DNA of 64,000 nucleotides from NCBI GenBank assembly GCA_038063615.1, contig JBBTUT010000002.1, positions 48,746 to 112,745 on the forward strand, read 5' to 3'. A model generated the notes under the pieces. That model had not been told where the DNA came from. It did no database searches and saw nothing but the letters and a program-made list of their open reading frames with translations. The translations under genes and the position numbers were made by a program. The stretch comes from Patescibacteria group bacterium (GTDB lineage: Bacteria > Patescibacteriota > Minisyncoccia > Phycocordibacterales > UBA1550). Below are positions 4,928-58,674 of this stretch, one piece after another (the stretch's first letter is position 1; each line of letters starts with the position of its first letter).

Positions 4928-4947
4928 AAAATTTTATTTAATCGAGA

Positions 4948-6265: not shown

Positions 6266-6271
6266 AATTCT

Positions 6272-6604
6272 TTACGCGAAGGCGAGGTTAAATTGACCCG
6301 AGCTCAACACATAAGGAGACTTGGTCGCTCGTGCGACGCGTTTGCCAACCCCCTGAACACTTTGCCACATTTGCTCATATTCAGGTTCAATAGCTTGGTT
6401 GAGCACATGCGGACGCAATTTGAATTTACGCGCAGACTCAAGGTAGCCCTGCACCGCCTCATTTAAAAGAACAATGGCTTCAATCTGAGACGCCGCCTCA
6501 ACAATAACATTGAATTCCAGGGCAACACCAAAAAAAACATCTCTTTCCTTAAATACCACATACCGCACTGACCCTTTTTGCAAAGTATTTTTAAAAGCTT
6601 TCAT
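6272..6604 (-). CDS. hicB: HicB-like antitoxin (UPF0150 / RNase-H-like N-terminal domain)
   Basis: VRYVVFKERDVFFGVALEFNVIVEAASQIEAIVLLNEAVQGYLE resembles the HicB N-terminal domain. It lies directly upstream of hicA on the same strand. Confidence 0.45.
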   Translation of the reverse strand: MKAFKNTLQKGSVRYVVFKERDVFFGVALEFNVIVEAASQIEAIVLLNEAVQGYLESARKFKLRPHVLNQAIEPEYEQMWQSVQGVGKRVARATKSPYVLSSGQFNLAFA

Positions 6605-7648: not shown

Positions 7649-8530
7649 TTAATTCGCGTCCACAGCAATCCTTGCGAGCATCATCGCTCCCTCCTTCGAC
7701 CCTGCGACGGCGATGAATCGTTTATTGTGACAGAAGAGTGCATCAGGGACGCCGGAGATCTCGGCGAGCTCTCCGTCAAATTTGCCCGCCCATGCGATCG
7801 GCAGATCCTTTCTGTTTTTGAACGAATGCGCGTCGCTCCGCACCGCTTCGACTTTCCACATGTTGTCGTCGCCACGCGCGGGCTTCACTACGAACAACGG
7901 TTCCGGGCGCGCGCCGAGCGACTCGTACCACGGATAATGATGGTCGAGAACGATGATGCGCTTGTCGACGGCGCGCGCGTACGCTTCTTCAGCGCGGAGC
8001 TTCCCCTCTTCCTCACTGCGTGCGTGAATGATCTCGCGCGCAAGAATTTTCTTTGCGACCTCAAACGCTTCAAAAAAACCTTCTTCCTCGGTGCGCGCCT
8101 CATTCCACGCAGGGCGGAAAGCGCTCACGACATCGTGAAGAAAATACGGCACCACTTCGCCGTGTGCGGCGAATGTTTCAACGCCGTTGTCTCCCGCATC
8201 GACCGGCTGTGCTATCAGTCCATCGATCATTTTTGCCGCATATACAGAGCCCGTGATTTTCTCGCCGTAATGTTTCCATACGAGACCGAACGATGAGTAC
8301 GGAATATTGTTTTCCCTCACCCCCGCGCCACCTATTTGATGATGGTCAAATCGCCCGGCATCTGCATCATAGACTCCGCCCACATCGACGACAAAATCCC
8401 CCGTCGCCCAAACTTCGGGGTCGCGACTGCGCACGACCTCGACTGCTCCATCGTGCAAGAGCGCAAGTGTGGCGCAGGAAAAAACCTCGTCTGTGTGGAA
8501 GTTACCGCTGTGGGTTACGATCTTTTTCAT
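7649..8530 (-). CDS. MYG1/UPF0160-family metal-dependent hydrolase. The start is set at MKKIVTHSG (ATG at 8530); the ORF track start at 8563 runs into the repeat element.
   Basis: IVTHSGNFHTDEVFSCATL is the MYG1 hallmark. Confidence 0.8.
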   Translation of the reverse strand: MKKIVTHSGNFHTDEVFSCATLALLHDGAVEVVRSRDPEVWATGDFVVDVGGVYDADAGRFDHHQIGGAGVRENNIPYSSFGLVWKHYGEKITGSVYAAKMIDGLIAQPVDAGDNGVETFAAHGEVVPYFLHDVVSAFRPAWNEARTEEEGFFEAFEVAKKILAREIIHARSEEEGKLRAEEAYARAVDKRIIVLDHHYPWYESLGARPEPLFVVKPARGDDNMWKVEAVRSDAHSFKNRKDLPIAWAGKFDGELAEISGVPDALFCHNKRFIAVAGSKEGAMMLARIAVDAN

Positions 8531-8632
8531 CCCGTTAGAAGTTTTGTTGTTAAAATTAGTCATAGTGATTTATCCAGCCCTTTGATTATTTCCTTGTCTT
8601 CTGATTAAAGTACATGGAAACTTCTAACGGGA
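8531..8632. repeat. MITE-like cassette, copy 1. About 102 bp, bounded by inverted repeats cccgttagaagtt / aacttctaacggg, abutting the MYG1 start codon and overlapping the DedA stop.
   Basis: The left arm at 8531-8543 is immediately 3' of cat (the ATG on the minus strand). The right arm is at 8619-8632. The interior is AT-rich and carries a conserved aaggaaa-aataat core shared with copy 2. Confidence 0.5.
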
Positions 8633-9235
8633 TTCAAGTTTTTGATGTTCGAGCCGTTCATAATAAGAGGTAATGAGTTTCTGAAGCAAAATGAATCCTA
8701 CCACGAAAACCACGATGAGCAAAACGAAGTGCGACGCTTTTCTCGTAAAGACGACCGCGGCATGCCCAAACATATAGCCCGCAACCGCATAGATAGCCAC
8801 CCATGCGAACGAAGCAATCGCTTCCGCTTTCATAAAAAGCGGGAACGATATGCGGAGAACCCCCGATAGCACCAGCACCGCATGGTTTACGCCGTAGATA
8901 AACTTGGAAAGGAATATCGAGAGGAACGGCTTTTCACGAAATCGCGGTAAGAAATAGAAGACGCTTTTTTCTGCAAAACGAGCGATGTACGCGAGCTTTT
9001 CCATCCGCGCGATGAACATGCCGAAAACATACCAAAACGCATCACCCAAAAGCACACCGACGAATGCGACCCAGAGTACATCGCCGAAATCAAGAGCGCG
9101 CAAGCTCGCGAGCATTCCCGCGATGATCAAAAACGCCTCCCCCTCTATGAGCATCGCTACAAAAAGAGCGCCATACGCCAAAAAGCGATGGTCTTGGACA
9201 AGCGGGATAAAAAAGTCAATGGATTGCTCGAGCAT
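8624..9235 (-). CDS. DedA-family (VTT/SNARE-associated) membrane protein
   Basis: AMLIEGEAFLIIAGMLAS is the DedA motif, with multiple transmembrane segments. Confidence 0.6.
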   Translation of the reverse strand: MLEQSIDFFIPLVQDHRFLAYGALFVAMLIEGEAFLIIAGMLASLRALDFGDVLWVAFVGVLLGDAFWYVFGMFIARMEKLAYIARFAEKSVFYFLPRFREKPFLSIFLSKFIYGVNHAVLVLSGVLRISFPLFMKAEAIASFAWVAIYAVAGYMFGHAAVVFTRKASHFVLLIVVFVVGFILLQKLITSYYERLEHQKLESR

Positions 9236-9590: not shown

Positions 9591-10601
9591 CTATGCTTGG
9601 GGAATAAGATTTTTTATCTCACCATTGCTGAACGCAGTGACATTTTCGACCGTCGTGTCGAGGATGCGCTTGATCGCCTCTTCGGTATTGAATGCATTGT
9701 GCGGTGCGATGATCGCGCGCGGATGCTCGATCAAATAGTGATTGGCGAGTGTGGTTTTCAAGCTTGCTTCGTTCGGATGCGCGCTGAAAAGCAATCTCGT
9801 CTCGTCTTCGACAAAGCCCTCTTCTTCGAGCACATCGAGGCCGACGCCGAGGAGGATCCCCTCGCGGAGGCCTTTCACGAGCGCTTCCGTTTCTACGAGC
9901 GCGCCGCGTGCGGTATTGATGAGCACGCTCCCCCTTTTCATTTTTGCGATATTGTCGACATTCAAAATATGATGAGTTTCCTTCATATAAGGAAGATGCA
10001 CACTCACGATGTCGGACTGAGCGAGGAGGTCGTCGAACGATACATACGAAAAGCCGAGCTCTTGCGCGAGGTTGTCTTTCGGGTGCGCATCGAATGCGAT
10101 GACCTTCATATCAAATCCTTTCACCATTTTGATCATATGCACACCGATGCGCCCCGTGCCGAGAATGCCGATTGTCTTCCCCTTGAGGTCGAAACCGCGA
10201 AGCCCCGCCTGCGAAAAGAGCCCCTCTTCTTGAACTTTTTTCACGCACTCATACAGTTTGCGTGAGACCATGAGGAGGAGCCCGACCGCAAACTCGGCGA
10301 CAGTGTTTTCTCCGTAACCGGGAACGAACGAAACTGTGATCCCGCGCGCCTGCGTTTCAGTACGGTCGATGTGGTCGTACCCCGTCGAGCGCGCCGCGAT
10401 GTGTTTCAGGTTCGGGAACCGGTCGAGCTCCGTTTTTCCAACGGGAGAATTCACGAACACCGAGAGCACTTCCGCTTGCTCATCGCGCATATCCGGATAG
10501 TCGGTGGTGATGCCTTTCAAAAAAGTTATCTCGTGCCCAACAAGGCGCTCCTTCACATACCCCGCCTCCCAATCTTCATTGTAAAAATATATGATTTTCA
10601 T
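9591..10601 (-). CDS. D-isomer-specific 2-hydroxyacid dehydrogenase (glycerate/hydroxypyruvate reductase or D-lactate dehydrogenase-like)
   Basis: GILGTGRIGVHMIKMVKGFDMKVIAFD NAD-binding motif, and the catalytic region VSVHLPYMKETHHILN ... NTARGALVE. Confidence 0.8.
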   Translation of the reverse strand: MKIIYFYNEDWEAGYVKERLVGHEITFLKGITTDYPDMRDEQAEVLSVFVNSPVGKTELDRFPNLKHIAARSTGYDHIDRTETQARGITVSFVPGYGENTVAEFAVGLLLMVSRKLYECVKKVQEEGLFSQAGLRGFDLKGKTIGILGTGRIGVHMIKMVKGFDMKVIAFDAHPKDNLAQELGFSYVSFDDLLAQSDIVSVHLPYMKETHHILNVDNIAKMKRGSVLINTARGALVETEALVKGLREGILLGVGLDVLEEEGFVEDETRLLFSAHPNEASLKTTLANHYLIEHPRAIIAPHNAFNTEEAIKRILDTTVENVTAFSNGEIKNLIPQA

Positions 10602-10702
10602 CCCGTTAGAAGTTTAATTGATAAAATTTACTACAAAAATGATTTAACCTATTATTTGTTTCCTTACCATCTTTAAAAACTCTCGGGAAACTTCTAATGG
10701 GA
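10602..10702. repeat. MITE-like cassette, copy 2. About 101 bp, arms cccgttagaagttt / aaacttctaatggg, abutting the start codon of the 2-hydroxyacid dehydrogenase.
   Basis: Same arm sequence as copy 1 with one mismatch, and a similar interior (tgattta-cc...atttgtttcctt...ggaaacttcta). Confidence 0.5.
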
Positions 10703-10742
10703 TTCATAAAATTAACTTACTATGTAGTACATTGTACCACAA

Positions 10743-16325: not shown

Positions 16326-16369
16326 CACCATTATCTATTCCAAGTCATGACTTGGAATAGATAATGGTG
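16326..16369. repeat. Perfect 44 nt palindrome, family P1, 22 nt upstream of the PaaX-like gene 1 start
   Basis: caccattatctattccaagtca|tgacttggaatagataatggtg is its own reverse complement. Confidence 0.8.
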
Positions 16370-16391
16370 TATAATACAAAGTAAATACACC

Positions 16392-16946
16392 ATGGACAAA
16401 TACGAAAAAGGCGAACTTGCAAAAGAGATACTGCTTGGCATTGCGGCTTGTGGTTTCATCGTCGCAATGGCGGCGATGCCTGGGCTCGGTAAAGTAGTGC
16501 CACTTTTTAAAAATTTCAAAAGGGCAAAAGACCGCCACCGGATAAATCAAGCATTCCAAAAACTTCAAAAAAGAAAGCTGGTAAACATTTATACAAAAAA
16601 TAGTACCGAAGTCGTAGAGATTACCGAAGCGGGAAAGAAAAAAGTTCTTGAATACAATCTTGGCGAGATGAGATTAAAAGTCCCAAAGAAATGGGATGGC
16701 TGGTGGAGAATCGTGATGTTCGACATTCCACAGCCAAAGAAGAAAGCACGCGACGCGGTGAGCTGGAAGATAAAAGAGCTTGGTTTGTACCCGATCCAAA
16801 AGTCAGTTTTTGTATCACCATACTTATGTAAAAATGAAATTGATTTTATTGGAGAATTTTTTGGAGTACGCGACCACATCATCTACATCAAAGCAAAAGA
16901 GATCGAGGGTGTACGCAAACTCAAAGAATATTTTAACCTTGAATGA
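16392..16946 (+). CDS. PaaX-family-like transcriptional regulator, paralog 1 (wHTH N-terminal domain plus PaaX_C-like WDGxW domain; short form)
   Basis: C-terminal KKWDGWWRIVMFDIPQPKKKARDAVSWKIKELGLYPIQKSVFVSP parallels E. coli PaaX WDGKWLLLL...QL.W.GFG.L. The N-terminal half parallels PaaX_N. It is 45% or so identical to the ORF at 47433..48017. Confidence 0.5.
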   Translation: MDKYEKGELAKEILLGIAACGFIVAMAAMPGLGKVVPLFKNFKRAKDRHRINQAFQKLQKRKLVNIYTKNSTEVVEITEAGKKKVLEYNLGEMRLKVPKKWDGWWRIVMFDIPQPKKKARDAVSWKIKELGLYPIQKSVFVSPYLCKNEIDFIGEFFGVRDHIIYIKAKEIEGVRKLKEYFNLE

Positions 16947-17009
16947 CGCATCGGCACCAATTGACCCCATCGCAAACAAAAACCGCAACGAGTTAACTCA
17001 GTTGTCTCT

Positions 17010-17047
17010 TGTTATCTATTTCAAGCCATGACTTGAAATAGATAACA
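17010..17047. repeat. 38 nt palindrome, family P1, one central mismatch, 63 nt downstream of the PaaX-like gene 1 stop
   Basis: tgttatctatttcaagcca|tgacttgaaatagataaca. Confidence 0.75.
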
Positions 17048-20662: not shown

Positions 20663-21114
20663 TGCCATTTTTTTATGTGCTATTCGCTGATGCAGTGATG
20701 CATCCTCGAACATGTATGCAAATTATTTTATCTACAACAATTACTCGACCCGATCGTGTATGAGTAAATCTCATCATCAATCGCGTACAATTATTGGATC
20801 ATGTCTTGTGTGAAAATTCTCTCACACGGTGTACTGTGATCTACTACTATTATCGCGCATACAAAAATCAAACACAATACTTTTTAAAAATAAAACTGTG
20901 GATAACTTTTTTTCTTTGTCGTGAAGAAAATTTTTTTGAAACAAAAAAAATTTTACATCTGCTCCACGAAATTTTAATTTCATAAATTTAATTTCGCATT
21001 CCATTTTCCAATTTCAAATTTAAACTTCCCTTTCACTGCACACGCATCCGGACCTATGGGCCCGAATGCGTGTGCAGTGAAAAAATTTCAAAACATACCA
21101 GACAAAAATTAAAT

Positions 21115-21154
21115 CTTCCGCCTTCTATGTCCTATAGGACATAGAAGGCGGAAG
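21115..21154. repeat. Perfect 18 bp stem with a 4 nt loop (cttccgccttctatgtcc tata ggacatagaaggcggaag). An imperfect 14 bp hairpin lies just upstream at 21034-21079.
   Basis: Read from the sequence. Confidence 0.7.
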
Positions 21155-21172
21155 AACTTGGAAATTAAAAAA

Positions 21173-21196
21173 ATCCGCCAAATTGGCGGATTTTTT
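21173..21196. terminator. Bidirectional rho-independent terminator (atccgcc aaatt ggcggat with flanking A and T runs)
   Basis: Read from the sequence. Confidence 0.6.
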
Positions 21197-21380
21197 ACTC
21201 CTGTACTCTTAAGGCCAGCGGGGGCGAGCTCCAAAACAAATGTCTATGAGTGCAGCCGCTAGCCATAGGAACACACGATACTATTTAATACGATGAGCGT
21301 AGAGTACCGGGCAGTGTCTAGCCGACGCGAAACTCACCATTCACCATATGTTCTGTATTATAAACAATTTATACAAAAAC
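21197..21380. ncRNA. Candidate small structured RNA, about 185 nt, GC-rich relative to its surroundings and bracketed by terminators. Identity unknown.
   Basis: No ORF. The segment lies between the terminators at 21173-21196 and 21381-21408 and has GC-rich stems (ggccagcgggggcgagctcc ... ccgggcagtg). Confidence 0.2.
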
Positions 21381-21408
21381 AAAAAGCCCCGCTTTCGCGG
21401 GGCTTTTT
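21381..21408. terminator. Bidirectional rho-independent terminator (gccccgc tttc gcggggc + TTTTT, A-run upstream)
   Basis: Read from the sequence. Confidence 0.65.
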
Positions 21409-21491
21409 GTAGACATTCGTTTGTTTTGGAAGTACCTAGAGGTTTCCCTCACTGCACTCATGTAACCAATATAGCAAATTCACAGGAAAAG

Positions 21492-22133
21492 TCAAGCTCC
21501 AATCAATTTTACCTGTTTCGTAACCTCGCGCACAACACCTTTAATGATGCCTGAAACATCCTTATTTCTAAAATCTTCGGCTATTTCCAAAGGTACTTTT
21601 TGTATCGAGTCTACTGCGGACAAAGCAACGACCCAGCTCATGATATCTTGTTCCGGATAAACATCTTGCCACCACGATATCCACGAACGCACATCCGTTT
21701 CTTTCGCAATGCACGCAAGATCGAAATAATCTTTATACTCTTCCCTCCCGCATATCGCGACAAGCTTCATTACCGTTATGTCTTTGATGCTTGCAAGCCG
21801 AAAAAAATCCGTAGAATTTACCGGCTCCAAAAGCGTATTGAACCGAGAGATGAATGATATTTTCACGCCGTCGATAACACACCACAAGGTATCCTTAGTT
21901 TCAAAAAGAATCTCTACTGTGGTTTTTTGGAAAATATCAACAAGACTCTTTTTTAAAGCAAGCGTGTCTATCGGCTTCGCGATAAAATAATCGAGGTCCA
22001 CGCTTTTTCGATGCCCGACATAAAGCGCGAGCGCTGTTCCTCCGGCAAGATAATACTCTGGATCAATATTTTCAAAAACAAGGCGCGCAACAGTACACAT
22101 GGTGTCGGTAATTGTTTCTTGGTGAAGTGTCAT
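21492..22133 (-). CDS. AbiEii/AbiGii-family nucleotidyltransferase toxin (type IV TA / abortive infection)
   Basis: YLAGGTALALYVGHRKSVDLDYF matches the AbiEii nucleotidyltransferase motif (GG.A...R.S.D.D). Confidence 0.6.
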   Translation of the reverse strand: MTLHQETITDTMCTVARLVFENIDPEYYLAGGTALALYVGHRKSVDLDYFIAKPIDTLALKKSLVDIFQKTTVEILFETKDTLWCVIDGVKISFISRFNTLLEPVNSTDFFRLASIKDITVMKLVAICGREEYKDYFDLACIAKETDVRSWISWWQDVYPEQDIMSWVVALSAVDSIQKVPLEIAEDFRNKDVSGIIKGVVREVTKQVKLIGA

Positions 22134-42650: not shown

Positions 42651-43421
42651 ATGAAATTTAGCATAATTACCCCAACATACAAGAGGAGAAAATTGCTTGA
42701 GCGAGCTGTTCAGTCGGTTCTTCGCCAGACCTATACCGAATGGGAAATGATCATTGTGAACGATTCTCCGGATGATTCTTCATACCAAGTGCTTCCTTTC
42801 TCCGTCTCTGACCCGCGAATTCATTACCTTGCGAATGATACAAATCGTGGTGTAAACTATTCTCGTAATCGGGCTCTCGACAGTATTTCCGAAGATTCAG
42901 ACTGGGTTGTTTTTTTGGATGATGACGACTACCTAGCGCCTGACACACTTACGACTTTTCACAAACTAGTCACTTCTCACCCAAAGGGAATGTGGTTCGT
43001 CACCAATCGCGCATACGCAGGAGGAAAGCTAGTCACAAAATACCCAAAGCTGGAAACATGGTATTCATATATCAAAGATGTTCTCATCTTAAAACGATGC
43101 AAAGGCGATGTAACACATTGTATAAAAGCAAACCTACTTACCAACATTAGATATTCAAAACACATCAAGCAAGCCGAGGAATGGTTATTCTACTACCAAA
43201 TTGCGCTTCGAGAAAAAATATTCTACCACGACCACAATAGTACTTTGACTGATGGGTATGATAAAGTTTCTGGGCTCAACTTCCGTAAACGCACTCGCGC
43301 CGAGCAATTCAAAACGCTCCGTGTCTTTATCCGCGAAGGGTCTGAACTTCACCTTCTCCATCACCCAACATTTCTCATTTATCTTTTCATGCGGTTCGTG
43401 CGACTGTGCCTCAAACCGTAG
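42651..43421 (+). CDS. Family-2 glycosyltransferase
   Basis: FSIITPTYKRRKLLERAVQSVLRQTY...IIVNDSPDD...VFLDDDD. Confidence 0.8.
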   Translation: MKFSIITPTYKRRKLLERAVQSVLRQTYTEWEMIIVNDSPDDSSYQVLPFSVSDPRIHYLANDTNRGVNYSRNRALDSISEDSDWVVFLDDDDYLAPDTLTTFHKLVTSHPKGMWFVTNRAYAGGKLVTKYPKLETWYSYIKDVLILKRCKGDVTHCIKANLLTNIRYSKHIKQAEEWLFYYQIALREKIFYHDHNSTLTDGYDKVSGLNFRKRTRAEQFKTLRVFIREGSELHLLHHPTFLIYLFMRFVRLCLKP

Positions 43422-43426
43422 GAGAA

Positions 43427-43502
43427 AGCGCCTTCACCATATAAGTCCCCTCAAGCACATATCCCCACTTGCGGTAGTATTCGCGGACGCCGATGCCGGA
43501 GA
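43427..43502. repeat. Displaced duplicate of the elp3 3' coding end, about 76 bp and about 88% identical to 44767..44842
   Basis: Minus-strand translation keeps the Elp3 C-terminal frame ISGIGVREYYRKWGYVLEGTYMVKAL, versus ...WGYRLEGTYMVKAL* in the intact gene. Confidence 0.7.
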
Positions 43503-43546
43503 TAGCTTTGAATACCTGATTTTAGTCTAATTCCCCCAAATAGGTA

Positions 43547-43595
43547 TATTACGGGGAGTTTGACTCCCCGTAATTGACATATTACGGGGAGTTTG
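43547..43595. promoter_or_regulatory. Direct repeat tattacggggagtttga (twice) with an internal inverted repeat (attacggggag / ctccccgtaat), upstream of the AAA+ ATPase gene
   Basis: Read from the sequence. Contains TTGACA at 43575-43580. Confidence 0.3.
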
Positions 43596-43611
43596 ATACC
43601 CTTAAAGGTAT

Positions 43612-44745
43612 ATGAGGATTCCAAGACTATATGCTGACATAGGAAGCCGTCTCCAACCAAACAAGGTCTTGGTTATCTTTGGTCCGCGTCGTGTCGGCAA
43701 AACGACCCTTATCACCGACTTTCTCTCAACATACAAAGGAAAATATCGCTTAGAATCCGGTGACGATATTCGTGCGCGTGAAGTCCTTGGATCAGAAGAT
43801 CTTTCCTTGTTGAAAGAGTATGCGGCAGGATACGACCTCATCGTAATTGATGAAGCACAGCGCATACCTAAGATTGGCTGGGGACTGAAACTGCTTGTTG
43901 ATCATATCCCGGGAATTCGCATCATTGCTACCGGCTCATCATCGTTTGAGCTTGCCGGGCAGATTGGCGAGCCACTCACCGGGCGCAAAAACACAATAAC
44001 ACTCTTCCCTATTTCTCAGCTCGAGTTGCTCGCCTATCACGGTGGGAACCGCCACGACCTCTCCGTAGAAATTACTGAGCGGCTTGTATTTGGCAGCTAT
44101 CCAGAAGTTGTCTCTACTAAAAACACAGGCGAAAAAAAAGATATTCTTGGAGAAATTGTCGGATCATACTTGCTCAAAGATATCTTGGAGCTTGACCGTA
44201 TTCGCAATACAAAAATATTAAGCGACCTCGTACGGCTTGTCGCGCTTCAAGTGGGAAATGAAGTATCTTTGAGCGAGCTCGCGACAATACTTGGAATAGA
44301 CAGGAAGACGGTCGCTCGATATCTCGACCTTCTCGAGAAATCATTCATCCTTTACAATCTACGCGGATATAGCCGTAACCTTCGCAAAGAGGTGACCAAG
44401 AAAAGCAAATACTATTTCTACGACACGGGTGTACGAAATGCGGTCATTTCAAACTTCAACGATCTTTCTCACCGCGATGACGCTGGAGCGCTGTGGGAAA
44501 ACTTTATGGTAATCGAGCGACTTAAAACGCGTTCATACAAAAACATACCTGCAAATGATCACTTTTGGCGCACATGGGATCAAAACGAAATTGACTTCGT
44601 TGAAGAGCGCGACGGAAAACTTTTTGGTTATGAATTTAAGTGGAAAAATCTAAAAGCGAAAGAACCGAAGGGTTGGCGCGAAACATATCCTGAGGCAAGC
44701 TACGAGGTAATCACTCCCGAGAATTATCTAAAAATACTCGAATAG
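43612..44745 (+). CDS. AAA+ ATPase with C-terminal DUF4143 (AAA_14 / DUF4143 family)
   Basis: VLVIFGPRRVGKTTL Walker A, LIVIDEAQRIP Walker B, and a C-terminal DUF4143-like region (FFYDTGVRNAV...). Confidence 0.75.
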   Translation: MRIPRLYADIGSRLQPNKVLVIFGPRRVGKTTLITDFLSTYKGKYRLESGDDIRAREVLGSEDLSLLKEYAAGYDLIVIDEAQRIPKIGWGLKLLVDHIPGIRIIATGSSSFELAGQIGEPLTGRKNTITLFPISQLELLAYHGGNRHDLSVEITERLVFGSYPEVVSTKNTGEKKDILGEIVGSYLLKDILELDRIRNTKILSDLVRLVALQVGNEVSLSELATILGIDRKTVARYLDLLEKSFILYNLRGYSRNLRKEVTKKSKYYFYDTGVRNAVISNFNDLSHRDDAGALWENFMVIERLKTRSYKNIPANDHFWRTWDQNEIDFVEERDGKLFGYEFKWKNLKAKEPKGWRETYPEASYEVITPENYLKILE

Positions 44746-44762
44746 TTAGAGAAAAGAGTGCG

Positions 44763-46448
44763 CTACAGTGCCTTCACCATATATGTCCCCTCGAGCCGGT
44801 ATCCCCATTTGCGGTAATATTCGCGGACGCCGATGCCGGAGATGATGGCGAGTTTGGCGTAGCCGGCTTCGCGCGCGATGCGTTCTGCTTCGACGAGGAG
44901 GCGGCGGCCGAAGCCGATGTGCTGGCTTTGCGTGCCTGCGGTGCCGATTGGGGTGAGCTGCCCGTAGGTGTGGAGCTCGCGCACGAGTGCGGCGTCGCGG
45001 AGGACCTCGAGTGGTCCGCCGACGAATTCTTCGCCGTGATTGTCGGGGAGGCGCAGGCGAAGAAAAGCGGCGAGTTTGCCCTCGTTCGGCTCTTCAAAAC
45101 TAAGAAAGATCTCGCGCCCTGTTTTAGTGCGATACTCGGTCGTCGTGAGCGGAAACTTTTCCAAGTCAATGACGGCGCCACGCACTTCGCGACAGCGGAT
45201 GCATACGCAGTGCCAGTTGTGCTTTTTCATATCATTAAAAAGCCATTGGCGGAGATTTGAAATTTTGCTTCCCGCTTGAATGTAGGTCGCGGGGATGTCG
45301 CGGATGACCCGAATGATGCGCACATATTTCGGCACCTGTTTTTTTGCGCCGACGAGCACGCGAAAAAGCTCCTCGTCCGTGTACGGCTTGAACCCGCCTT
45401 CCTTCCATATTTGAAAAAGCTCACTCCCCTCGAGCACCATACACGGATACACCTTGAGCATATCGGGTTGAAAATCCTCGCCGGAAAAAAGCTCGCCAAA
45501 CATTTCGATGTCGCGCTCCACGGTCGAGCCGGGAAGATTGGGCATCATATGGTATACGACTTTGAGTCCCGCATTGCGGAGGCGCTCAGTTGCCTGTGCC
45601 ACCTGCGCAATCTTCATATCGCGTTTTGTTTGTTTGAGGACAGCATCATCAAGATGCTGAACACCAATCTCGACTTTGGTCACACCGAGCAGACGCAGTC
45701 GTTCAATTTCGTAAGTCGTAATGTAATCGGGACGCGTCTCTATTGAAAGTCCGATGATGCGCGTTCCCGCCGTTTCGTTTTCATTTTGTAATTCCGCAAG
45801 AGACTTTACACCCTTTGGTGTCTGCATGTCTTTCTGTTTTCCAAAATTGTTGCATGCGCGATAGCATTCAGCGAGAAATTCTTCCTGATATTTCGGATGA
45901 TAAAAACTCCAAGTCCCGCCGATGACGATCATCTCTATCTTGTCGGTCGCGTGTCCGTTCATCACGAGCGCAGAGAGACGGCTCGTCACTTGGTCGTACG
46001 GATCGAAGTCGTTGGCAAGGGCGCGCGCGGCGGCCGGCTCTTTTGAAAGATAGCTCTTCGGCATTTTCTCTTCGGTCGGACAATAGGTACACCGCCCCGG
46101 ACAGGGATACGGTTTGGTAAGGAGCGACACGACCGCAACGCCGGAATTGCTTCGTGTCTTTATTTTTTTCAAAACAAGCTCCGCGTCAAGATTTGGCATC
46201 TCATCCCCTGTTGCGATGACCTCTTTGTACAAGGCAAGCATTTCCGCATTGGTAGGCATTTTTGGACCCAATCCATCCTCAGAAACCGCCGTATTCGGCT
46301 CATTTTGCCCCATAGAAGCGGGTTTGTTCTGTCGAGAGGGGATGTTTTGGCGAAGCTCCAAAATACGCGCATAGAGCACCGGATTGGTGGCGATGCGCCG
46401 TTTGAGCTTGTCCAAGTCCTTTTCGGTTTTTATGTCGGTGAAAAGCAT
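44763..46448 (-). CDS. elp3: Elp3-type radical-SAM / GNAT tRNA uridine(34) acetyltransferase. Start set at MLFTDIKTEK.
   Basis: CPGRCTYCP radical SAM cluster motif, a C-terminal GNAT domain (GFGRRLLVEAERIAREAGYAKLAIISGIGVREYYRKWGY), and typical Elp3 length. Confidence 0.85.
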   Translation of the reverse strand: MLFTDIKTEKDLDKLKRRIATNPVLYARILELRQNIPSRQNKPASMGQNEPNTAVSEDGLGPKMPTNAEMLALYKEVIATGDEMPNLDAELVLKKIKTRSNSGVAVVSLLTKPYPCPGRCTYCPTEEKMPKSYLSKEPAAARALANDFDPYDQVTSRLSALVMNGHATDKIEMIVIGGTWSFYHPKYQEEFLAECYRACNNFGKQKDMQTPKGVKSLAELQNENETAGTRIIGLSIETRPDYITTYEIERLRLLGVTKVEIGVQHLDDAVLKQTKRDMKIAQVAQATERLRNAGLKVVYHMMPNLPGSTVERDIEMFGELFSGEDFQPDMLKVYPCMVLEGSELFQIWKEGGFKPYTDEELFRVLVGAKKQVPKYVRIIRVIRDIPATYIQAGSKISNLRQWLFNDMKKHNWHCVCIRCREVRGAVIDLEKFPLTTTEYRTKTGREIFLSFEEPNEGKLAAFLRLRLPDNHGEEFVGGPLEVLRDAALVRELHTYGQLTPIGTAGTQSQHIGFGRRLLVEAERIAREAGYAKLAIISGIGVREYYRKWGYRLEGTYMVKAL

Positions 46449-47297: not shown

Positions 47298-47343
47298 CCC
47301 CGTAACCCCTATCTCCACAACTATCTCCCCAATCTTATCTTTT

Positions 47344-47389
47344 TCTCTTCAGCCTGTTTGATACTATAGTATCAAACAGGCTGAAGAGA
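47344..47389. repeat. Perfect 46 nt palindrome, family P2, 44 nt downstream of the PaaX-like gene 2 stop
   Basis: tctcttcagcctgtttgatacta|tagtatcaaacaggctgaagaga. Confidence 0.8.
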
Positions 47390-47432
47390 AATTCAACGAG
47401 ACCTCCTCGAAACGAGTGCTCCTGCGGATAAT

Positions 47433-48017
47433 TTAAAGCTTGAATGTCTTCTTAATCTGCTCCACGCCTTCAACATCATGGGCGACAACAATACGAATAT
47501 ATTTTCGAACATCAAAACATTCTCCAACAAAATCAATCTCCTTGGTGCAAGGAAACGGCGTAATAAACACTGACTTTTGATACTGCGCACAACCAAGCTT
47601 CTTGAGGGCGAGATTGACTGCTCGACGCGCCATCTTTTTTTCTTCAGGAACATCGAACATAATTAAACGCCATGTTCCATCCCATTTTTTTTGAGGAGAT
47701 ATTTTCATCAAATCAAGCTGATTTCGCTTTGCGCGATTATACCCTAAGTCGGTAAGCGAATAATAATCATCTCCATTTTTCGTACTCTTTTTTACAAACC
47801 CTCTTTTCTCAAGCCGTGAAAATGAGCGGTGAACCTCCCATCTATCTTGAGAGTTTCGCGGAAGAAAATATTTAAAAAGTTGCACGGCGTTGGGAGCAAC
47901 GATTGCTGTTGTTAAAAGCCCAACACCAAGCAAAATATTCAGAATCATCTCCTGTCGTTCTTGTTTTTTCAAAATCATCTCCTGCTTCTTTTGTTTTTCT
48001 TTTTCTTGTTTTTTCAT
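47433..48017 (-). CDS. PaaX-family-like transcriptional regulator, paralog 2, with a K/E/Q-rich N-terminal extension
   Basis: SFSRLEKRGFVKKSTKNGDDYYSLTDLG (PaaX_N-like wHTH) and KKWDGTWRLIMFDVPEEKKMARRAVNLALKKLGCAQYQKSVFITP (PaaX_C-like). Homologous to the ORF at 16392..16946. Confidence 0.5.
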   Translation of the reverse strand: MKKQEKEKQKKQEMILKKQERQEMILNILLGVGLLTTAIVAPNAVQLFKYFLPRNSQDRWEVHRSFSRLEKRGFVKKSTKNGDDYYSLTDLGYNRAKRNQLDLMKISPQKKWDGTWRLIMFDVPEEKKMARRAVNLALKKLGCAQYQKSVFITPFPCTKEIDFVGECFDVRKYIRIVVAHDVEGVEQIKKTFKL

Positions 48018-48026
48018 ATTAAATCA

Positions 48027-48068
48027 TTTACAGCCTGTTTGATACTATAGTATCAAACAGGCTGTAAA
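48027..48068. repeat. Perfect 42 nt palindrome, family P2, 10 nt upstream of the PaaX-like gene 2 start
   Basis: tttacagcctgtttgatacta|tagtatcaaacaggctgtaaa. The 34 nt core is identical to the 47344..47389 copy. Confidence 0.8.
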
Positions 48069-48178
48069 TGTAAACAGGGATGAACAGGGAATTAAGGAAC
48101 TTACAAAAATCTACTGATTCGTCTATTTCGCTGACAAACTCACAAAAGTGACCCGTACAATTAAGGTCGAGCAACTTC

Positions 48179-53303: not shown

Positions 53304-53347
53304 GCCCATTATCTATTTCAAGTCATGACTTGAAATAGATAATGGGC
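53304..53347. repeat. Perfect 44 nt palindrome, family P1, third copy, far from the PaaX-like genes
   Basis: gcccattatctatttcaagtca|tgacttgaaatagataatgggc. Confidence 0.8.
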
Positions 53348-55460: not shown

Positions 55461-55547
55461 AGCTCCTCCTCCTTCATTTTTTTGATTTACTGTTTCTACC
55501 CAAATACTAGCATTTTAATGGACAAAGTCAAGACTAAAATCTGTGCG

Positions 55548-55617
55548 CGATGGAGGCACTCGAACATGGGACCTCGTCGTTATCAGGGCGACGGGAGTGC
55601 CCGCATCCGTCGCCCGC
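55548..55617 (-). pseudogene. tRNA-Ile-like pseudo-copy D: D-arm 3' part, a 28 nt GC hairpin insert (GGCGACGGATGCGGGCACTCCCGTCGCC), anticodon loop CTGATAA, a degenerate T-arm and a 3' acceptor strand
   Basis: Aligned by eye to the intact tRNA-Ile. The T-stem strands are not complementary and there is no 5' acceptor strand. Confidence 0.4.
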
Positions 55618-55644
55618 TCTATCTAAATTAAGTTCATTGTGCGC

Positions 55645-55670
55645 GATCCAGGACTCGAACATGGGAAACT
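55645..55670 (-). pseudogene. Partial tRNA-Ile copy: T-arm plus 3' acceptor strand (CCCATGTTCGAGTCCTGGATCGCGCA), 17 nt after the intact gene
   Basis: Near-identical to the 3' 26 nt of the tRNA-Ile, with one T-stem mismatch. Confidence 0.5.
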
Positions 55671-55686
55671 TATCTGCTTTTCAAAG

Positions 55687-55760
55687 TGCGCGATCCAGGA
55701 CTCGAACCTGGGACCTCGTCATTATCAGTGACGCGCTCTAACCACCTGAGCTAATCGCGC
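55687..55760 (-). tRNA. tRNA-Ile (anticodon GAU), 74 nt, no encoded CCA
   Basis: GCGCGATTAGCTCAGGTGGTTAGAGCGCGTCACTGATAATGACGAGGTCCCAGGTTCGAGTCCTGGATCGCGCA. A 7 bp acceptor stem, GTGG D-loop, anticodon loop CTGATAA and TTCGAGT T-loop. Confidence 0.85.
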
Positions 55761-55785
55761 ACTTTGAAAACCAATTTTAAAAACC

Positions 55786-55855
55786 TCGTCGTGATTAGGG
55801 CGACGGGAGTGCCCGGCATCCGTCGCCCGCTCTAACCACCTGAGCTAATCGCGCT
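55786..55855 (-). pseudogene. tRNA-Ile-like pseudo-copy A: an intact 5' acceptor strand and D-arm, then a 29 nt GC hairpin insert and an altered anticodon region (CTAATCA), with no T-arm
   Basis: GCGCGATTAGCTCAGGTGGTTAGAGCG is identical to the intact gene's first 27 nt, followed by GGCGACGGATGCCGGGCACTCCCGTCGCC CTAATCA CGACGAGGT. Confidence 0.4.
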
Positions 55856-55917
55856 TTTCAGCACTTGGAGAACATACCATAAAACACCCCTTTACGCAAC
55901 GATTTCGTTAAAAAAGC

Positions 55918-56410: not shown

Positions 56411-57026
56411 GTTTGAAAAATTGCATGTATGTAATATCTAAAAATTATTTGTTGAGTATTCTTTCTTTTGTTCCGTTCTTCGCCTTGCTTTGCCGTCCGT
56501 TTTAAAAAAACAGGCGATTAAGCAAGGTCTTGCGTACCGGTAACCCTTCCGGTAAGGGAGCCCCTTTTTGAGATGGGAGGGCCTTCATCTTAATTCCTTG
56601 CGGAAAAAACCGACCAATTCAGCGTATCGCAACCACGAGGGCGTACGATACAACATTATATTTTGAATTGATTCACGACCAGCTTCCGCTAGCCGTGCCT
56701 TGTTACGACTTAGTCCTTGTTACCAAGCTTACCTTAGGTCCACGCGAGGTGGAACTTCGGGTACTCTCGGCTCCCCTGACTTGACGGGCGGTGAGTACAA
56801 GACTTGAGAACGTATTCACCGCAGTATAGCTGACCTGCGATTACTAGCGATTCCAACTTCATGAGGTCGAGTTTCAGCCCTCAATCCGAACTGGGGCCAC
56901 CTTTATTAGGATTAGCTCAGGGTTACCCCGTCGCGACCCGTTGTAGTGGCCATTGTATCAAGTGTGCAGCCCAGGGTATCAAAGGGACATGCTGACCTGG
57001 CGTCATCCTCTCCTTCCTCCCCCGCC

Positions 57027-57153
57027 TTTATTCGCGAAGCGAACAAAGGCAAGTCAAAAGTTAAAAGTCACAAGTCGAAAGTAGATGCATTTTGCATTCA
57101 CTTTTTACTTTACACTTTCTACTTTCCACTTGCCTTTGCGCTTCGTGCGCAAA
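57027..57153 (-). other. 16S insertion 1: an AT-rich extended hairpin of about 116 extra nt replacing the small loop before the GGAGGAAGG region (E. coli position about 1165)
   Basis: Sense strand reads TTTGCGCACGAAGCGCAAAGGCAAGTGGAAAGTAGAAAGTGTAAAGT...ACTTTCGACTTGTGACTTTTAACTTTTGACTTGCCTTTGTTCGCTTCGCGAATAAA, full of (G/C)AAAGT repeats. No ORF. Confidence 0.6.
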
Positions 57154-57388
57154 GGCGGGGGCAGTCTCGTCTGACACATATAACAGACAACGAGGGTTGC
57201 GTTCGTTGACCCACTTAAGGGGACAGTTCAAACCACGAACTGACGACGGCCATGCATCACCTGTCCATAAGTCCTTGCGGAGTTACCGAGTTTCCTCGGT
57301 CTTTCTTATGGATTTCTAACCCTGGTGAGGTTCTTCGTTTACCATCGAATTAAGCCACCTGATCCACCGCTTGTGCAAGTCCCCGTCT

Positions 57389-57420
<32 letters not shown>

Positions 57421-57918
57421 TCCCAGGCGGATCTCTTAACGCGTTAGCTTCGCCTCTCAGAGGGTCGATACTCCGAAAAGCTAGAGATCATCGTTTAGGG
57501 CGTAGACTACTGGGGTATCTAATCCCATTCGCTACCTACGCTTTCGTGTTTCAGTGTCAGAAATGTGCCAGTTTGCTGCCTTCGCATTTGGTGTTCCCCA
57601 TGATATCAACGGATTTCACCCCTACACCATGAGTTCCGCAAACCTCTCACACCCTCTAGTCGTGCCGTTTCAGCCGCAATTCTCCGGTTAAGCCGGAGGC
57701 TTTGACGAATGACTAACACGACCACCTACACACCCTTTACGCCCAATAATTCCGGATAACGCTTGGGGTACTCGTATTACCGCTGCTGCTGGCACGAGTT
57801 TAGCAACCCCTTATTCATGAGGTACTATCAAAAATTTCTCCCTCATAAAAGATCTTTACATCCCGAAAGACTTCATCGATCACGCGGCGTCGCTCCATCA
57901 GACTTTCGTCCATTGTGG

Positions 57919-57949
<31 letters not shown>

Positions 57950-58189
57950 ATGGTCCGTGTCTCAGTACCATCGGTGGGGGTCAGGCTCTCACCTCCCCTA
58001 AGCGTCATAGCCTTGGTAAGCCATTACCTTACCAACTAGCTGATACTCAATAAGCCAAGCCCCAAGCGATAAATCTTTACTCCGAAGAGACTATCAAGTA
58101 TTAGCCCGCCTTTCGGCGGGTTATTCCTGACTTGGGGGTTTGTACCTATTTATTACTACCTCGTTCGCAACTCCGAGCATCACGCTACG

Positions 58190-58292
58190 CGCGATACACG
58201 AGTCAAAAGTCGAAAGTCCTTAAAGTCCAAAGTAAATACGAATTGTATTCACTTTTGACTTTCGACTTTATAAACTTTTTGACTTGTGCATC
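58190..58292 (-). other. 16S insertion 2: an AT-rich hairpin expansion of helix 6 (V1 region), about 95 extra nt, with the same AAAGT/GACTTT repeat flavour
   Basis: Stem base CCGAGCATCAC ... GTGATGCTCGG. The interior reads CAAGTCAAAAAGTTTATAAAGTCGAAAGTCAAAAGTGAATACAATTCGTATTTACTTTGGACTTTAAGGACTTTCGACTTTTGACTCG. Confidence 0.6.
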
Positions 58293-58674
58293 ACACCCAA
58301 TGTGATGCTCGGCGTTCTACTTGCATGCCTTATCCACGCCGCCAGCGTTCATCCTGAGCTAGGATCAAACTCTCTTAAAAAGAGCATTTGAATTAACTCT
58401 CAAGAACGGAACAAAAGAAAAAATACTCTTTTGTATTCTTGTTATTTTACTCACAAGATCTGCCCAACTGCTAAAATCGAACAGATCCTTTTTTGGACTT
58501 GCAATCCAAACTTTAGATGTTTACATATATGCAATTGTCAAAGGTCGTTTTGCTTTCGGGCAAATACCCTGAAAGCAAAAGCGCTCATTCCTAAGCGCTT
58601 GAGCAGTATATACTTGTGTCGAAAAGAAGTCAAGCGCGAATTTTAGGCATATTTTATAGGCAAAATAAAGGTTT

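What the first reader, a model, noticed from the sequence alone, without database searches (positions are those of the whole stretch)
43427..44842. A 1.3 kb single-gene cassette (AAA+ DUF4143 ATPase) inserted at the 3' end of elp3, with about 76 bp duplication that keeps elp3 in frame
The sequence 43427..43502 is a displaced copy (about 88% identical) of the last about 25 codons of elp3 and still translates to the Elp3 C-terminus. The intact gene end lies 1.26 kb away at 44767..44842, with the ATPase gene and a repeat-rich leader in between.

This is the footprint of site-specific integration into a gene's 3' end with a replacement 3' end, as integrative islands do at tRNA genes. But there is no integrase, and the cargo is a single gene. 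DUF4143 ATPases are frequent mobile-element passengers.
Basis: seen in the sequence. Interest (0 to 1): 0.55.

Follow-up and report, generated by a model that had tools for sequence, protein, structure and literature searches.

The report
Displaced elp3 end beside defence-type ATPase
A single candidate anti-phage gene with its own promoter sits between the working end of the tRNA-modification gene elp3 and a leftover second copy of that end; the leftover is most likely a recombination scar rather than the footprint of an integrase-driven island, and similar scars bracket about one in five relatives of this gene.

Summary
A 78-nt direct repeat (43426-43503 / 44766-44843, 69/78 identical, unique in the window) brackets a 1.26-kb unit. 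The unit is a promoter/operator leader plus one gene for an AAA+ ATPase fused to a wHTH and a PD-(D/E)XK nuclease domain (AAA_14+DUF4143; PADLOC candidate defence gene PDC-S01). Elp3 is intact, and the left copy is a displaced pseudo-end.

No integrase or transposase was found among about 50 ORFs of the window.

- One relative has the same ATPase tail-to-tail with elp3 and no repeat (L181).
- Near-isogenic L098 has elp3 with nothing inserted.
- Other relatives have a toxin-antitoxin pair or a 48%-identical ATPase in the opposite orientation at the same elp3 end, each bracketed by its own elp3-end repeat.

Across 69 distinct homologous loci, 15 carry a bracketing direct repeat and 1 an inverted one. 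The repeats are always target-derived, usually end at a neighbour's start or stop codon, and cluster at 68-89 nt.

Best reading (about 0.5): 3'-end displacement by one homologous and one non-homologous join between two haplotypes. Rival readings are a self-mobilising ATPase-nuclease, an integrase acting in trans, and duplication in situ.

The parts
42651..43421 (+). GT2 glycosyltransferase gene. It is the last gene of a low-GC, hypervariable surface-polysaccharide cluster and forms the left flank. Its last codons overlap the read-through of the displaced elp3 end.
   Evidence: Pfam Glycos_transf_2 E 1.5e-27. GC 0.30-0.42 to the left against 0.50-0.62 in elp3. The left flank differs between relatives.
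43426..43503 (-). Displaced pseudo-copy of the last 26 codons of elp3. It has no stop codon, and the frame runs on to TGA at 43412-43414.
   Evidence: 69/78 identical to 44766-44843, with 7 of the 9 differences at third codon positions. tblastn to Elp3: 25/26 aa.
43504..43611 (+). Leader of the cassette. It contains the right arm only of an upstream hairpin (from 43507). The operator has three perfect copies of ATTACGGGGAGT (43548-43559 +, 43563-43574 -, 43581-43592 +) and a degenerate one (43529-43542 -). The -35 box is TTGACA at 43574-43579 and the extended -10 is TGATACCCT at 43594-43602. The ATG follows 9 nt later.
   Evidence: The exact 12-mer occurs only here in the window. The same layout, with co-varying half-site sequences, appears in 18 homologous leaders (alignment A3). 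Homology to relatives starts at 43507-43532. The simple promoter scan missed it because the -10 is weak.
43612..44745 (+). Gene for a 377-aa AAA+ ATPase with a wHTH and a PD-(D/E)XK nuclease-like domain (AAA_14 + DUF4143). It belongs to the PADLOC candidate single-gene defence family PDC-S01.
   Evidence: Pfam. PADLOC PDLC04789 E 1.8e-144. Walker A G24-T32, Walker B D80-E81 and the nuclease motif D328...E341-x-K343 are invariant or nearly so in 40 homologues. The fold is generic AAA+ (SSO1545, RuvB, RFC, MuB), from a low-confidence model.
44746..44762 (.). 17-nt spacer between the convergent stop codons of the ATPase gene and elp3.
   Evidence: Sequence. The same tail-to-tail adjacency has a 5-6 nt spacer in L006 and L181.
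44766..44843 (-). Functional copy of the repeat: the last 26 sense codons of the intact elp3.
44763..46448 (-). elp3, a tRNA U34 modification radical-SAM/GNAT enzyme of 561 aa (the mechanical ORF extends to 46505). It is the conserved anchor gene.
   Evidence: TIGR01211 E 3e-161. Orthologues are 70-86% identical in Yonathbacteria and other Paceibacteria genomes.

Best explanation
What it is. The region contains a self-contained single-gene module. It has its own promoter with a four-site operator, probably bound by the protein's own wHTH domain. The gene encodes an ATPase-nuclease of the PDC-S01 / DUF4143 type. The module lies at the border between the conserved elp3-methyltransferase block and a hypervariable polysaccharide and defence region of a groundwater Patescibacteria (Yonathbacteria-like) genome.

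How the repeat arose (inferred). Two haplotypes recombined. One carried the ATPase module tail-to-tail with elp3, as L181 and L006 still do. The other carried the GT2 cluster directly against elp3. On the elp3 side the exchange was homologous. On the other side the join was non-homologous: position -78 of one elp3 was joined to the middle of the hairpin upstream of the ATPase promoter. The result is 3'-end displacement: elp3 body, working 3' end, ATPase, old 3' end, GT2.

This is what homology-facilitated illegitimate recombination would give. A single Campbell-type crossover of a circularised fragment carrying 'elp3 end + ATPase' would give the same. Either needs only host recombination and DNA uptake, not an integrase.

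Once formed, the two copies can loop the module out again or serve as homology arms to pass it to relatives.

Shown here: the anatomy, the allelic nature of the copies, filled and empty relatives, the non-fixed left end, and the same scars around other cargo.

Inferred: the recombination route and the direction (module into the GT2 haplotype, or GT2 flank into the module haplotype).
For: 1. The repeat is real and unique.
2. The two copies are sister alleles. They share W13 and A25, against R/L and Y/N in eight relatives. They differ at 7 third-codon positions plus one hypervariable codon, with no indel and no stop.
3. The same module sits against elp3 in L181 (90% aa) with no repeat. In L006-9 (89% aa) it has only a decayed remnant beyond a TA pair.
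4. L098 has flanks 86-89% identical to L181 and is an empty site: elp3 stop, 2 nt, next gene. L099 has only RelB-YafQ there.
5. Homology to relatives begins 3 nt after the left repeat, inside a hairpin whose left arm is missing in the window. In L010 and L182 the moved DNA carries a 43-nt relB fragment from the former neighbour. The end is therefore not a defined terminus.
6. The same architecture occurs with other cargo:
   - RelB-YafQ with a 187-nt elp3-end repeat in L100.
   - Fic with a 68-nt repeat in L011.
   - NYN with a 75-nt repeat in L181.
7. In most bracketed loci, the repeat edge that lies at the duplicated gene's own terminus falls within a few nt of that gene's start or stop codon. 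That is where two haplotypes with different neighbours stop being homologous.
8. No recombinase was found in the window or the related loci.
9. Patescibacteria are reported to be naturally competent and to keep homologous recombination genes (PMC12455944). The same route has been proposed for displaced 3' ends at T6SS and rhs loci (PMC5361080).
Against: - Random non-homologous joins do not predict the clustering of repeat lengths at 68-89 nt. Twelve of about 22 cases fall there, and L014's 259 nt equals 68 nt plus a 191-nt MITE.
- They also do not predict near-coincident in-gene boundaries of independent events: elp3 -78 in the window against -72 in L132, and the GT 3' end at -54 in L011 against -50 in L014.
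- Bracketing repeats are much commoner around this ATPase (15/69, or 8/46 in 400-nt flanks) than around its neighbours (2/117). In experiments, illegitimate outcomes are reported to be rare compared with clean double crossovers (PMC5361080).
- No microhomology is visible at the window's junction.
- No donor or recipient haplotype close enough to show a breakpoint inside elp3 was found. Neither repeat copy is closer to relatives than the other.
- The third-position bias is only marginal (p about 0.06) against a model of duplication in situ with purifying selection on one copy. Across other loci the synonymous/non-synonymous counts are mixed.
Confidence: 0.5

Rival explanations
1. The ATPase-nuclease module is itself a mobile element. 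Its product (an AAA+ oligomer plus a PD-(D/E)XK nuclease) would cut target DNA at gene ends about 70-85 nt apart. This would work either as a transposon-like insertion with a long target duplication, or as a free-standing homing nuclease whose break is repaired from a module-bearing genome. It might also mobilise small neighbouring cassettes.
For: - 15 of 69 distinct homologous loci are bracketed by target-derived direct repeats, against 1 inverted. Strong brackets occur at 8/46 ATPase genes against 2/117 neighbouring ORFs.
- Repeat lengths cluster at 68-89 nt.
- The unit is compact: 74-236 nt of leader, and the repeat starts 0-25 nt after the stop in most cases.
- Tandem arrays exist (L029).
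- The Fic and NYN cassettes with repeats of like size lie beside ATPase modules.
- The nuclease and ATPase motifs are intact and conserved.
- MuB appears among the AAA+ fold matches (weak).
- Many contigs of about 1.3 kb carry just this gene.
Against: - There are no terminal inverted repeats and no conserved end motif.
- The left end varies and can include fragments of the former neighbour.
- About 78% of loci, and all four finished plasmid copies examined, have no bracket.
- L181 has the module at the elp3 end without a repeat.
- A TA pair with no ATPase nearby has the same scar (L100).
- In the window the adjacency predates the repeat.
- No DDE, HUH, tyrosine or serine catalytic domain is present, and no strand-joining activity is known for this family.
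Confidence: 0.2
2. The repeat is an attL/attR pair made by a site-specific recombinase encoded elsewhere in the genome. The cassette would be an integrase-less, cis-mobilisable islet (CIME-like) that borrows that enzyme.
For: - The architecture is that of islands integrated in the 3' end of a gene with a replacement end.
- The same elp3 end is used by different cargo in different genomes (window, L132, L100). The same GT 3' end is used by Fic and by the ATPase.
- Tandem arrays exist.
- Only 64 kb of the genome could be searched.
Against: - No integrase, resolvase or transposase domain was found in the window or in about 20 related loci.
- Repeat sequences differ at every locus, so very many specificities would be needed.
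- Boundaries at the same target are near but not identical (-78, -72, -135; -54, -50).
- The cassette is inserted in both orientations.
- The 9 differences are spread over the first 52 nt of the repeat instead of flanking a short crossover core.
Confidence: 0.1
3. The repeat arose in situ, by tandem duplication or slippage of 'ATPase + elp3 end' followed by loss of one ATPase copy, or by an old duplication kept similar by gene conversion. No DNA came from another genome.
For: - Both copies share derived residues, as expected from a recent local copy or from conversion.
- Tandem ATPase modules separated by repeat copies do exist (L029).
- L014's two 259-nt copies are 99.6% identical and both contain the same MITE, although the module was already in place in the L011 lineage.
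Against: - It needs two precise steps.
- A neutral pseudo-copy should not differ almost only at third codon positions. Seven of 9 gives p about 0.008 against uniform decay and about 0.06 if the functional copy also drifts at silent sites.
- It does not explain why the displaced copy is continuous with a different neighbour (GT2) from the one found in relatives.
Confidence: 0.1

Closest known systems
3'-end ('C-terminal') displacement at rhs, CDI and T6SS effector loci, proposed to arise by homology-facilitated illegitimate recombination (Kirchberger et al. 2017, PMC5361080, which cites Jackson et al. 2009)
   Same: A conserved gene body receives a new 3' end together with adjacent cargo. The old 3' end is pushed downstream as an orphan fragment in the same orientation. 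No dedicated recombinase is involved, and successive events build arrays.
   Different: There the new end encodes a different toxin domain and the cargo is its immunity gene. Here the old and new ends are near-identical alleles of a housekeeping gene, and the cargo is an unrelated, separately promoted gene that can lie in either orientation.
Homology-facilitated illegitimate recombination and insertion-duplication (Campbell-type single crossover) in transformable bacteria (de Vries & Wackernagel 2002; Prudhomme et al. 2002; Meier & Wackernagel 2003, as cited in PMC5361080; PMC3240628)
   Same: One homologous anchor plus one non-homologous join, or one crossover of a circle carrying a gene fragment. 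Foreign DNA is inserted next to a conserved gene, with a duplicated segment of that gene.
   Different: These are known from laboratory selections, where deletions of recipient DNA are the usual outcome (my recollection). A preferred duplication length of about 70-85 nt is not a known property.
Genomic islands and ICEs integrated in the 3' end of tRNA or protein genes, and their integrase-less derivatives (CIMEs) (own knowledge)
   Same: Direct repeats that contain the end of the target gene. The gene stays intact through a replacement end. Tandem accretion occurs at one site.
   Different: Those depend on a tyrosine or serine recombinase with one specific att core. Here there is no recombinase, every locus has a different repeat, and the boundaries are not exact.
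PDC-S01, PADLOC candidate single-gene defence system (AAA_14 + DUF4143; COG1373)
   Same: The window protein matches the PDC-S01 model over its full length (E 1.8e-144). The family is described as an ATPase fused to a PD-(D/E)XK domain and as the fourth most common defence candidate in prokaryotes (PMC12988326; PMC3424549).
   Different: Nothing in the papers found describes bracketing repeats, an operator, or how the gene spreads. Defence activity itself is untested.
IS1634/IS1549-type insertion sequences that make long, variable target duplications; free-standing homing endonuclease genes of T4-like phages (own knowledge)
   Same: Long duplications of tens to hundreds of nt (the IS elements). 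A nuclease gene with its own promoter wedged between conserved genes and spreading by repair from a carrier genome (the homing genes).
   Different: The IS elements have a DDE transposase and inverted ends. The homing genes leave no duplication. Neither feature set is met here.

Membership tests
AAA_14 + DUF4143 ATPase (COG1373) / PADLOC PDC-S01 | Full-length match to the family profiles | tested here: met
   Pfam AAA_14 2-129/129 and DUF4143 2-159/160. PDLC04789 6-373/375, E 1.8e-144.
AAA_14 + DUF4143 ATPase (COG1373) / PADLOC PDC-S01 | Intact Walker A/B and PD-(D/E)XK motif | tested here: met
   GPRRVGKTT, VIDEAQ and EID...YEFK are present. G24, G29-T32, D80, E81, D328 and E341 are invariant and K343 is nearly invariant in 40 homologues.
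AAA_14 + DUF4143 ATPase (COG1373) / PADLOC PDC-S01 | Protection against phage | not testable with these tools
   The literature calls it an unvalidated candidate.
Integrase-driven integrative island at a gene 3' end | Tyrosine or serine recombinase gene in or beside the element | tested here: not met
   None in the 1.26-kb unit. None among about 50 window ORFs or in related loci.
Integrase-driven integrative island at a gene 3' end | Direct repeats containing the target gene's end, with the gene kept intact | tested here: met
Integrase-driven integrative island at a gene 3' end | Same att core and exact boundaries wherever the element family inserts | tested here: not met
   Repeats differ at every locus. 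Boundaries at elp3 are -78, -72 and -135.
CIME-like integrase-less element mobilised in trans | A cognate recombinase or ICE in the same genome using the same att site | not testable with these tools
   Only 64 kb of the genome is available, and none is seen in it.
Transposon / insertion sequence | Transposase (DDE, HUH, Tyr or Ser) and defined ends (inverted repeats or conserved termini) | tested here: not met
   No such domain. The only inverted repeats are the operator and a hairpin. Left ends vary and no junction motif is seen.
Transposon / insertion sequence | Target-site duplication of characteristic length | tested here: inconclusive
   Lengths range from 24 to 259 nt, but 12 of about 22 fall at 68-89 nt.
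Integron cassette | attC site at the cassette end and an IntI/attI platform | tested here: not met
   The repeats are fragments of neighbouring genes. There is no IntI, and the cassette has its own promoter.
3'-end displacement / HFIR-type recombination scar | Order: gene body, functional end, cargo, displaced homologous end in the same orientation, then a different downstream flank | tested here: met
.
3'-end displacement / HFIR-type recombination scar | Relatives exist that carry the cargo natively next to the anchor gene, and relatives exist with an empty site | tested here: met
   L181 and L006 are filled, L098 and L101 are empty, and L099 has TA only.
3'-end displacement / HFIR-type recombination scar | Microhomology at the non-homologous junction, and a recombination breakpoint in the anchor gene | tested here: inconclusive
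   No clear microhomology. No relative is close enough to reveal a breakpoint.
Free-standing homing endonuclease gene | Nuclease gene with its own promoter between conserved genes, with filled and empty alleles in relatives | tested here: met
Free-standing homing endonuclease gene | The product cleaves the empty allele near the insertion point | not testable with these tools
   Needs biochemistry.
Elp3 (TIGR01211) | Full-length radical-SAM + GNAT protein above the curated cut-off | tested here: met
   537 bits against a cut-off of 350, aligned to model positions 51-522/522.

The most novel reading that the evidence does not exclude
DUF4143/PDC-S01 ATPase-nuclease genes are a new class of single-gene, self-mobilising elements. 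The AAA+ oligomer would act as a ruler and the PD-(D/E)XK domain as the cutter, opening target DNA at gene termini about 70-85 nt apart. The promoter-plus-gene unit would then be inserted or copied in with a long target duplication, and small neighbouring cassettes (Fic, NYN, TA) might be mobilised the same way. That would explain why this untested 'defence candidate' is among the commonest accessory genes of bacteria and archaea.
Probability: 0.2. Interest if true: 0.85.

Novelty: new variant of a known kind. Interest (0 to 1): 0.5.

Why it matters
PDC-S01 is reported as the fourth most common candidate defence gene in prokaryotes, yet nothing is known about how it works or spreads.

Three points follow from this locus:
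- The gene travels as a compact, self-regulated unit.
- It lodges at the borders of conserved genes in small, integrase-poor genomes.
- About one copy in five carries a scar made of the neighbour's own end, often about 75 nt long.

If the scars are passive, they are a readable record of how streamlined, naturally competent bacteria gain accessory genes with only one homologous anchor. If they are active, the family is a new kind of mobile element.

Either way the scars give a simple sequence signature, a duplicated gene end, for dating and tracing the gain of defence genes in metagenomes.

Tried and rejected
- **Chance or generic repeat:** rejected. There is no third copy in the window and no Rfam match in 43300-44900.
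- **Assembly artefact:** rejected. Identical junctions occur in independent assemblies.
- **Integrase or transposase in the window:** none found.
- **Empty-site or alternative haplotype in the same Hainich population:** none on record via exact Elp3 and GT2 look-ups.
- **Recombination breakpoint inside elp3:** sliding identity to seven relatives is uninformative at 60-88% identity.
- **Which repeat copy is 'native':** both are equally similar to eight relatives.
- **Synonymous bias across other loci:** mixed, and strong only in the window and L182. My first L132 and L074 frames were wrong and are not used.
- **Junction motifs or microhomology:** none.
- **Structure:**
  - The AlphaFold model is poor (pLDDT 63).
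  - Foldseek gives only generic AAA+ hits.
  - There is no PDB relative by sequence.
  - There is no PHROG match.
  - Only one homologue occurs in 2.9 million viral contigs, so the gene is not phage-borne.
- **Finished plasmids:** four homologues (L183-L186) have no bracketing repeat.
- **Literature:** searches for DUF4143, COG1373, PDC-S01 and AAA_14 + 'direct repeats' found nothing on mobility.


Full report
**1. The observation**

The window comes from a groundwater Patescibacteria genome. The ATPase protein is deposited as 'Patescibacteria group bacterium', its closest relatives are Candidatus Yonathbacteria, and identical contigs come from Hainich well H41.

A direct repeat of 77 nt by the repeat finder and MAFFT, or 78 nt in codon register, lies at 43426-43503 and 44766-44843. 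The copies are 69/78 identical and start 1340 nt apart. A self-BLAST of the window finds no other copy (E 1e-22).

On the minus strand both copies encode the last 26 residues of Elp3, with one amino-acid difference. The right copy belongs to an intact elp3 (44763-46448; TIGR01211, 537 bits, aligned to the end of the model). The left copy lacks the stop codon and reads four more codons into the end of the GT2 gene. Independent assemblies from several samples carry both junctions (L003, L004).

**2. What lies between the copies**

The unit 43504-44762 holds a 108-nt leader and one gene.
- The protein (377 aa) is AAA_14 + DUF4143.
- It matches PADLOC's candidate defence family PDC-S01 end to end (E 1.8e-144).
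- Its Walker A, Walker B and D...ExK nuclease motifs are conserved.
- The family is listed among PD-(D/E)XK nucleases (PMC3424549).
- It is described as an ATPase-nuclease fusion, the fourth most common defence candidate, and untested (PMC12988326).

The leader has three perfect copies of ATTACGGGGAGT, found nowhere else in the window, and one degenerate copy. They are arranged around a TTGACA -35 box and a TGnTAnnnT -10 box. Eighteen homologous leaders share this layout while the half-site sequence changes from cassette to cassette. The most economical reading is autoregulation by the protein's own wHTH domain; this is an inference.

The structure model is poor (pLDDT 63). It only shows a generic AAA+ fold (SSO1545, RuvB, RFC, MuB).

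**3. Surroundings and relatives**

To the left is a low-GC polysaccharide gene cluster. To the right are elp3, a methyltransferase, a PaaX_M/Cas2-like gene, an LTD/PKD protein and a TrwB-like ATPase. About 50 ORFs of the window were scanned and none is an integrase, resolvase or transposase.

Orthologous ATPase modules (84-92% aa, about 77% nt) occur in related genomes in the same general region but with different immediate neighbours.
- In L181 (90% aa) and L006-9 (89% aa) the module is tail-to-tail with elp3, as in the window.
- L181 has no elp3 remnant.
- L006 has only a decayed remnant 1.35 kb away, beyond a RelB-YafQ pair.
- L098, whose flanks are 86-89% identical to L181, is an empty site: elp3 stop, 2 nt, start of the next gene.
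- L099 has only RelB-YafQ there.
- L181 has ATPase + RelB-YafQ + NYN. The NYN gene is itself bracketed by a 75-nt duplicate of the next gene's 5' end.
- L100 has RelB-YafQ bracketed by a 187-nt, 75%-identical duplicate of the elp3 end.
- L132 has a 48%-identical ATPase in the opposite orientation, bracketed by a 74-nt, 97%-identical duplicate of the elp3 end.

The elp3 end is therefore a hot spot where small accessory modules accumulate, with or without a duplicated end.

**4. A family-wide pattern**

Flank-against-flank BLAST was run on 69 distinct homologous loci. Fifteen have a direct repeat (E < 1e-5) bracketing the ATPase within 1 kb, against one with an inverted repeat (raw hits). With 400-nt flanks the figures are 8/46 ATPase genes against 8/119 neighbouring ORFs. 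One of those control hits is itself an ATPase gene (L029). Excluding it leaves two strong non-ATPase hits (E < 1e-4) among the other ORFs, which I report as 2/117: Fic in L011 and one in L062.

Every repeat has a different sequence and is a piece of the neighbouring DNA. Examples are 3' ends of convergent or upstream genes, 5' ends of downstream genes, and a sequence in L043 that looks by eye like part of a tRNA gene (not scanned). In most bracketed loci one repeat edge lies within a few nt of the neighbour's start or stop codon.

Lengths cluster at 68-89 nt:
- 78 (window)
- 75 (L132)
- 73 (L021/L022)
- 72 (L029)
- 73 (L059)
- 76 (L088)
- 83 (L182)
- 86 (L037)
- 89 (L074)
- 68 (Fic, L011)
- 75 (NYN, L181)
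- L014's 259 nt, which equals 68 nt plus a 191-nt MITE present in both copies

Tandem modules separated by repeat copies occur in L029. Four homologues on finished plasmids have no repeat. The gene is essentially absent from viral contigs.

**5. How the window's repeat most likely arose**

Both copies share two derived residues (W13, A25) that none of eight relatives has. Seven of their nine differences are silent third-position changes, and the other two fall in a hypervariable codon. They are thus two recent alleles of a working elp3 end. They are not an old insertion scar.

The ATPase-elp3 adjacency is shared with lineages that have the ancestral residues (L181, L006). So the adjacency is older than the repeat.

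Homology to relatives starts 3 nt after the left copy, inside a hairpin whose left arm is missing. In L010 and L182 the DNA that moved with the ATPase includes 43 nt of relB, its neighbour in L181 and L006. The left end is therefore a break point and not a defined terminus.

The simplest account is a join of two haplotypes, GT2|elp3 and ATPase|elp3. The join was homologous in elp3 and non-homologous at elp3 -78 / leader -108. This displaced one elp3 end.

That is the topology proposed for rhs and T6SS '3'-end displacement' through homology-facilitated illegitimate recombination (PMC5361080). A single crossover of a circular 'elp3 end + ATPase' fragment would give the same product. Patescibacteria are reported to be competent and to retain homologous recombination (PMC12455944). 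I give this about 0.5.

**6. What this account does not explain**

- Random joins do not predict a preferred length of about 75 nt.
- They do not predict near-coincident boundaries of independent events (elp3 -78 and -72; GT -54 and -50).
- They do not predict the strong enrichment around this gene family.

These points keep alive the idea that the ATPase-nuclease itself makes measured cuts or homing-type breaks (0.2). A trans-acting integrase (0.1) is disfavoured by the diversity of repeats, the inexact boundaries, both orientations and the lack of any recombinase. Duplication in situ (0.1) is disfavoured by the third-position bias (p about 0.008 to 0.06 depending on the null) and by the foreign left flank. 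L014, however, shows that very young identical copies can form around a resident module.

**7. Verdict**

The feature is real. It is not a classical integrative island. It is best filed as a displaced gene end beside a self-regulated PDC-S01 module, one instance of a recurrent and apparently undescribed signature of this gene family.

Novelty: a new variant of a known kind.

Interest is moderate (0.5). It would be high if the about-75-nt brackets prove to be made by the ATPase-nuclease itself.

Noticed in passing
window 16326-17047 and 47342-48070; L108 3306-4022: Two PaaX_M/Cas2-like genes (16392-16946 +, 47433-48017 -) are each bracketed by long perfect palindromes (44 and 38 nt; 50 and 46 nt) that share 34-40-nt cores. 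A further copy lies at 53304-53347. In L108 a gene of the same family is bracketed by a perfect 41-nt direct repeat. This looks like another small cassette type.
   Followed up: partly
window 55540-55860: Partial copies of tRNA-Ile (gene at 55687-55760, minus strand) lie on both sides of it: 55543-55586, 55571-55621/55783-55834 and 55828-55854. They sit just downstream of the 16S rRNA gene.
   Followed up: no
window 56661-58380: The 16S rRNA gene (minus strand) spans 1720 nt against a 1533-nt Rfam model, so it carries about 190 nt of insertion.
   Followed up: no
L011 6251-7391: A Fic gene with its own promoter-like leader is bracketed by a 68-nt, 98.5%-identical direct repeat. The repeat consists of 18 nt of intergenic DNA plus the last 16 or so codons of the next glycosyltransferase gene. 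The Fic gene sits immediately beside the ATPase module.
   Followed up: yes
L014 (=L015, L020) 4592-4782 and 6265-6455: A MITE-like element of about 190 nt, with 18-20-nt terminal inverted repeats (AGCCTATCTCCAATCTCG), lies between the ATPase trailer and the glycosyltransferase gene. It is present in both copies of the 259-nt repeat and absent from L011.
   Followed up: partly
L181 (reverse complement) 4369-5120; L098 4302-4376: An NYN-domain gene is bracketed by a 75-nt duplicate of the 5' end of the downstream glycosyltransferase gene. L098 is the matching empty site.
   Followed up: partly
L100 6288-7248; L099 6477-7064: A RelB-YafQ toxin-antitoxin pair is inserted directly after the elp3 stop codon. 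L100 has a 187-194-nt, 75%-identical elp3-end duplicate, and L099 has none. The TA leader carries a palindromic operator (TTGTAGCACACCTGTGCTACAA).
   Followed up: partly
L130 5789-6069: The elp3 of a Nomurabacteria genome is interrupted in mid-gene by about 280 nt that do not align to other elp3 genes. This could be an insertion, an intervening sequence or an assembly problem.
   Followed up: no
window 8524-8636 and 10595-10706: A 116-nt, 72%-identical direct repeat brackets a VTT-domain gene and a 2-hydroxyacid dehydrogenase gene.
   Followed up: no
window 21031-22133: An AbiEii-type toxin gene (21492-22133) lies next to two long palindromes (21031-21082, 21114-21155). L180 shows AbiEi, a second DUF4143 ATPase, Fic and the 92%-identical ATPase side by side, which looks like a small defence islet.
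   Followed up: no
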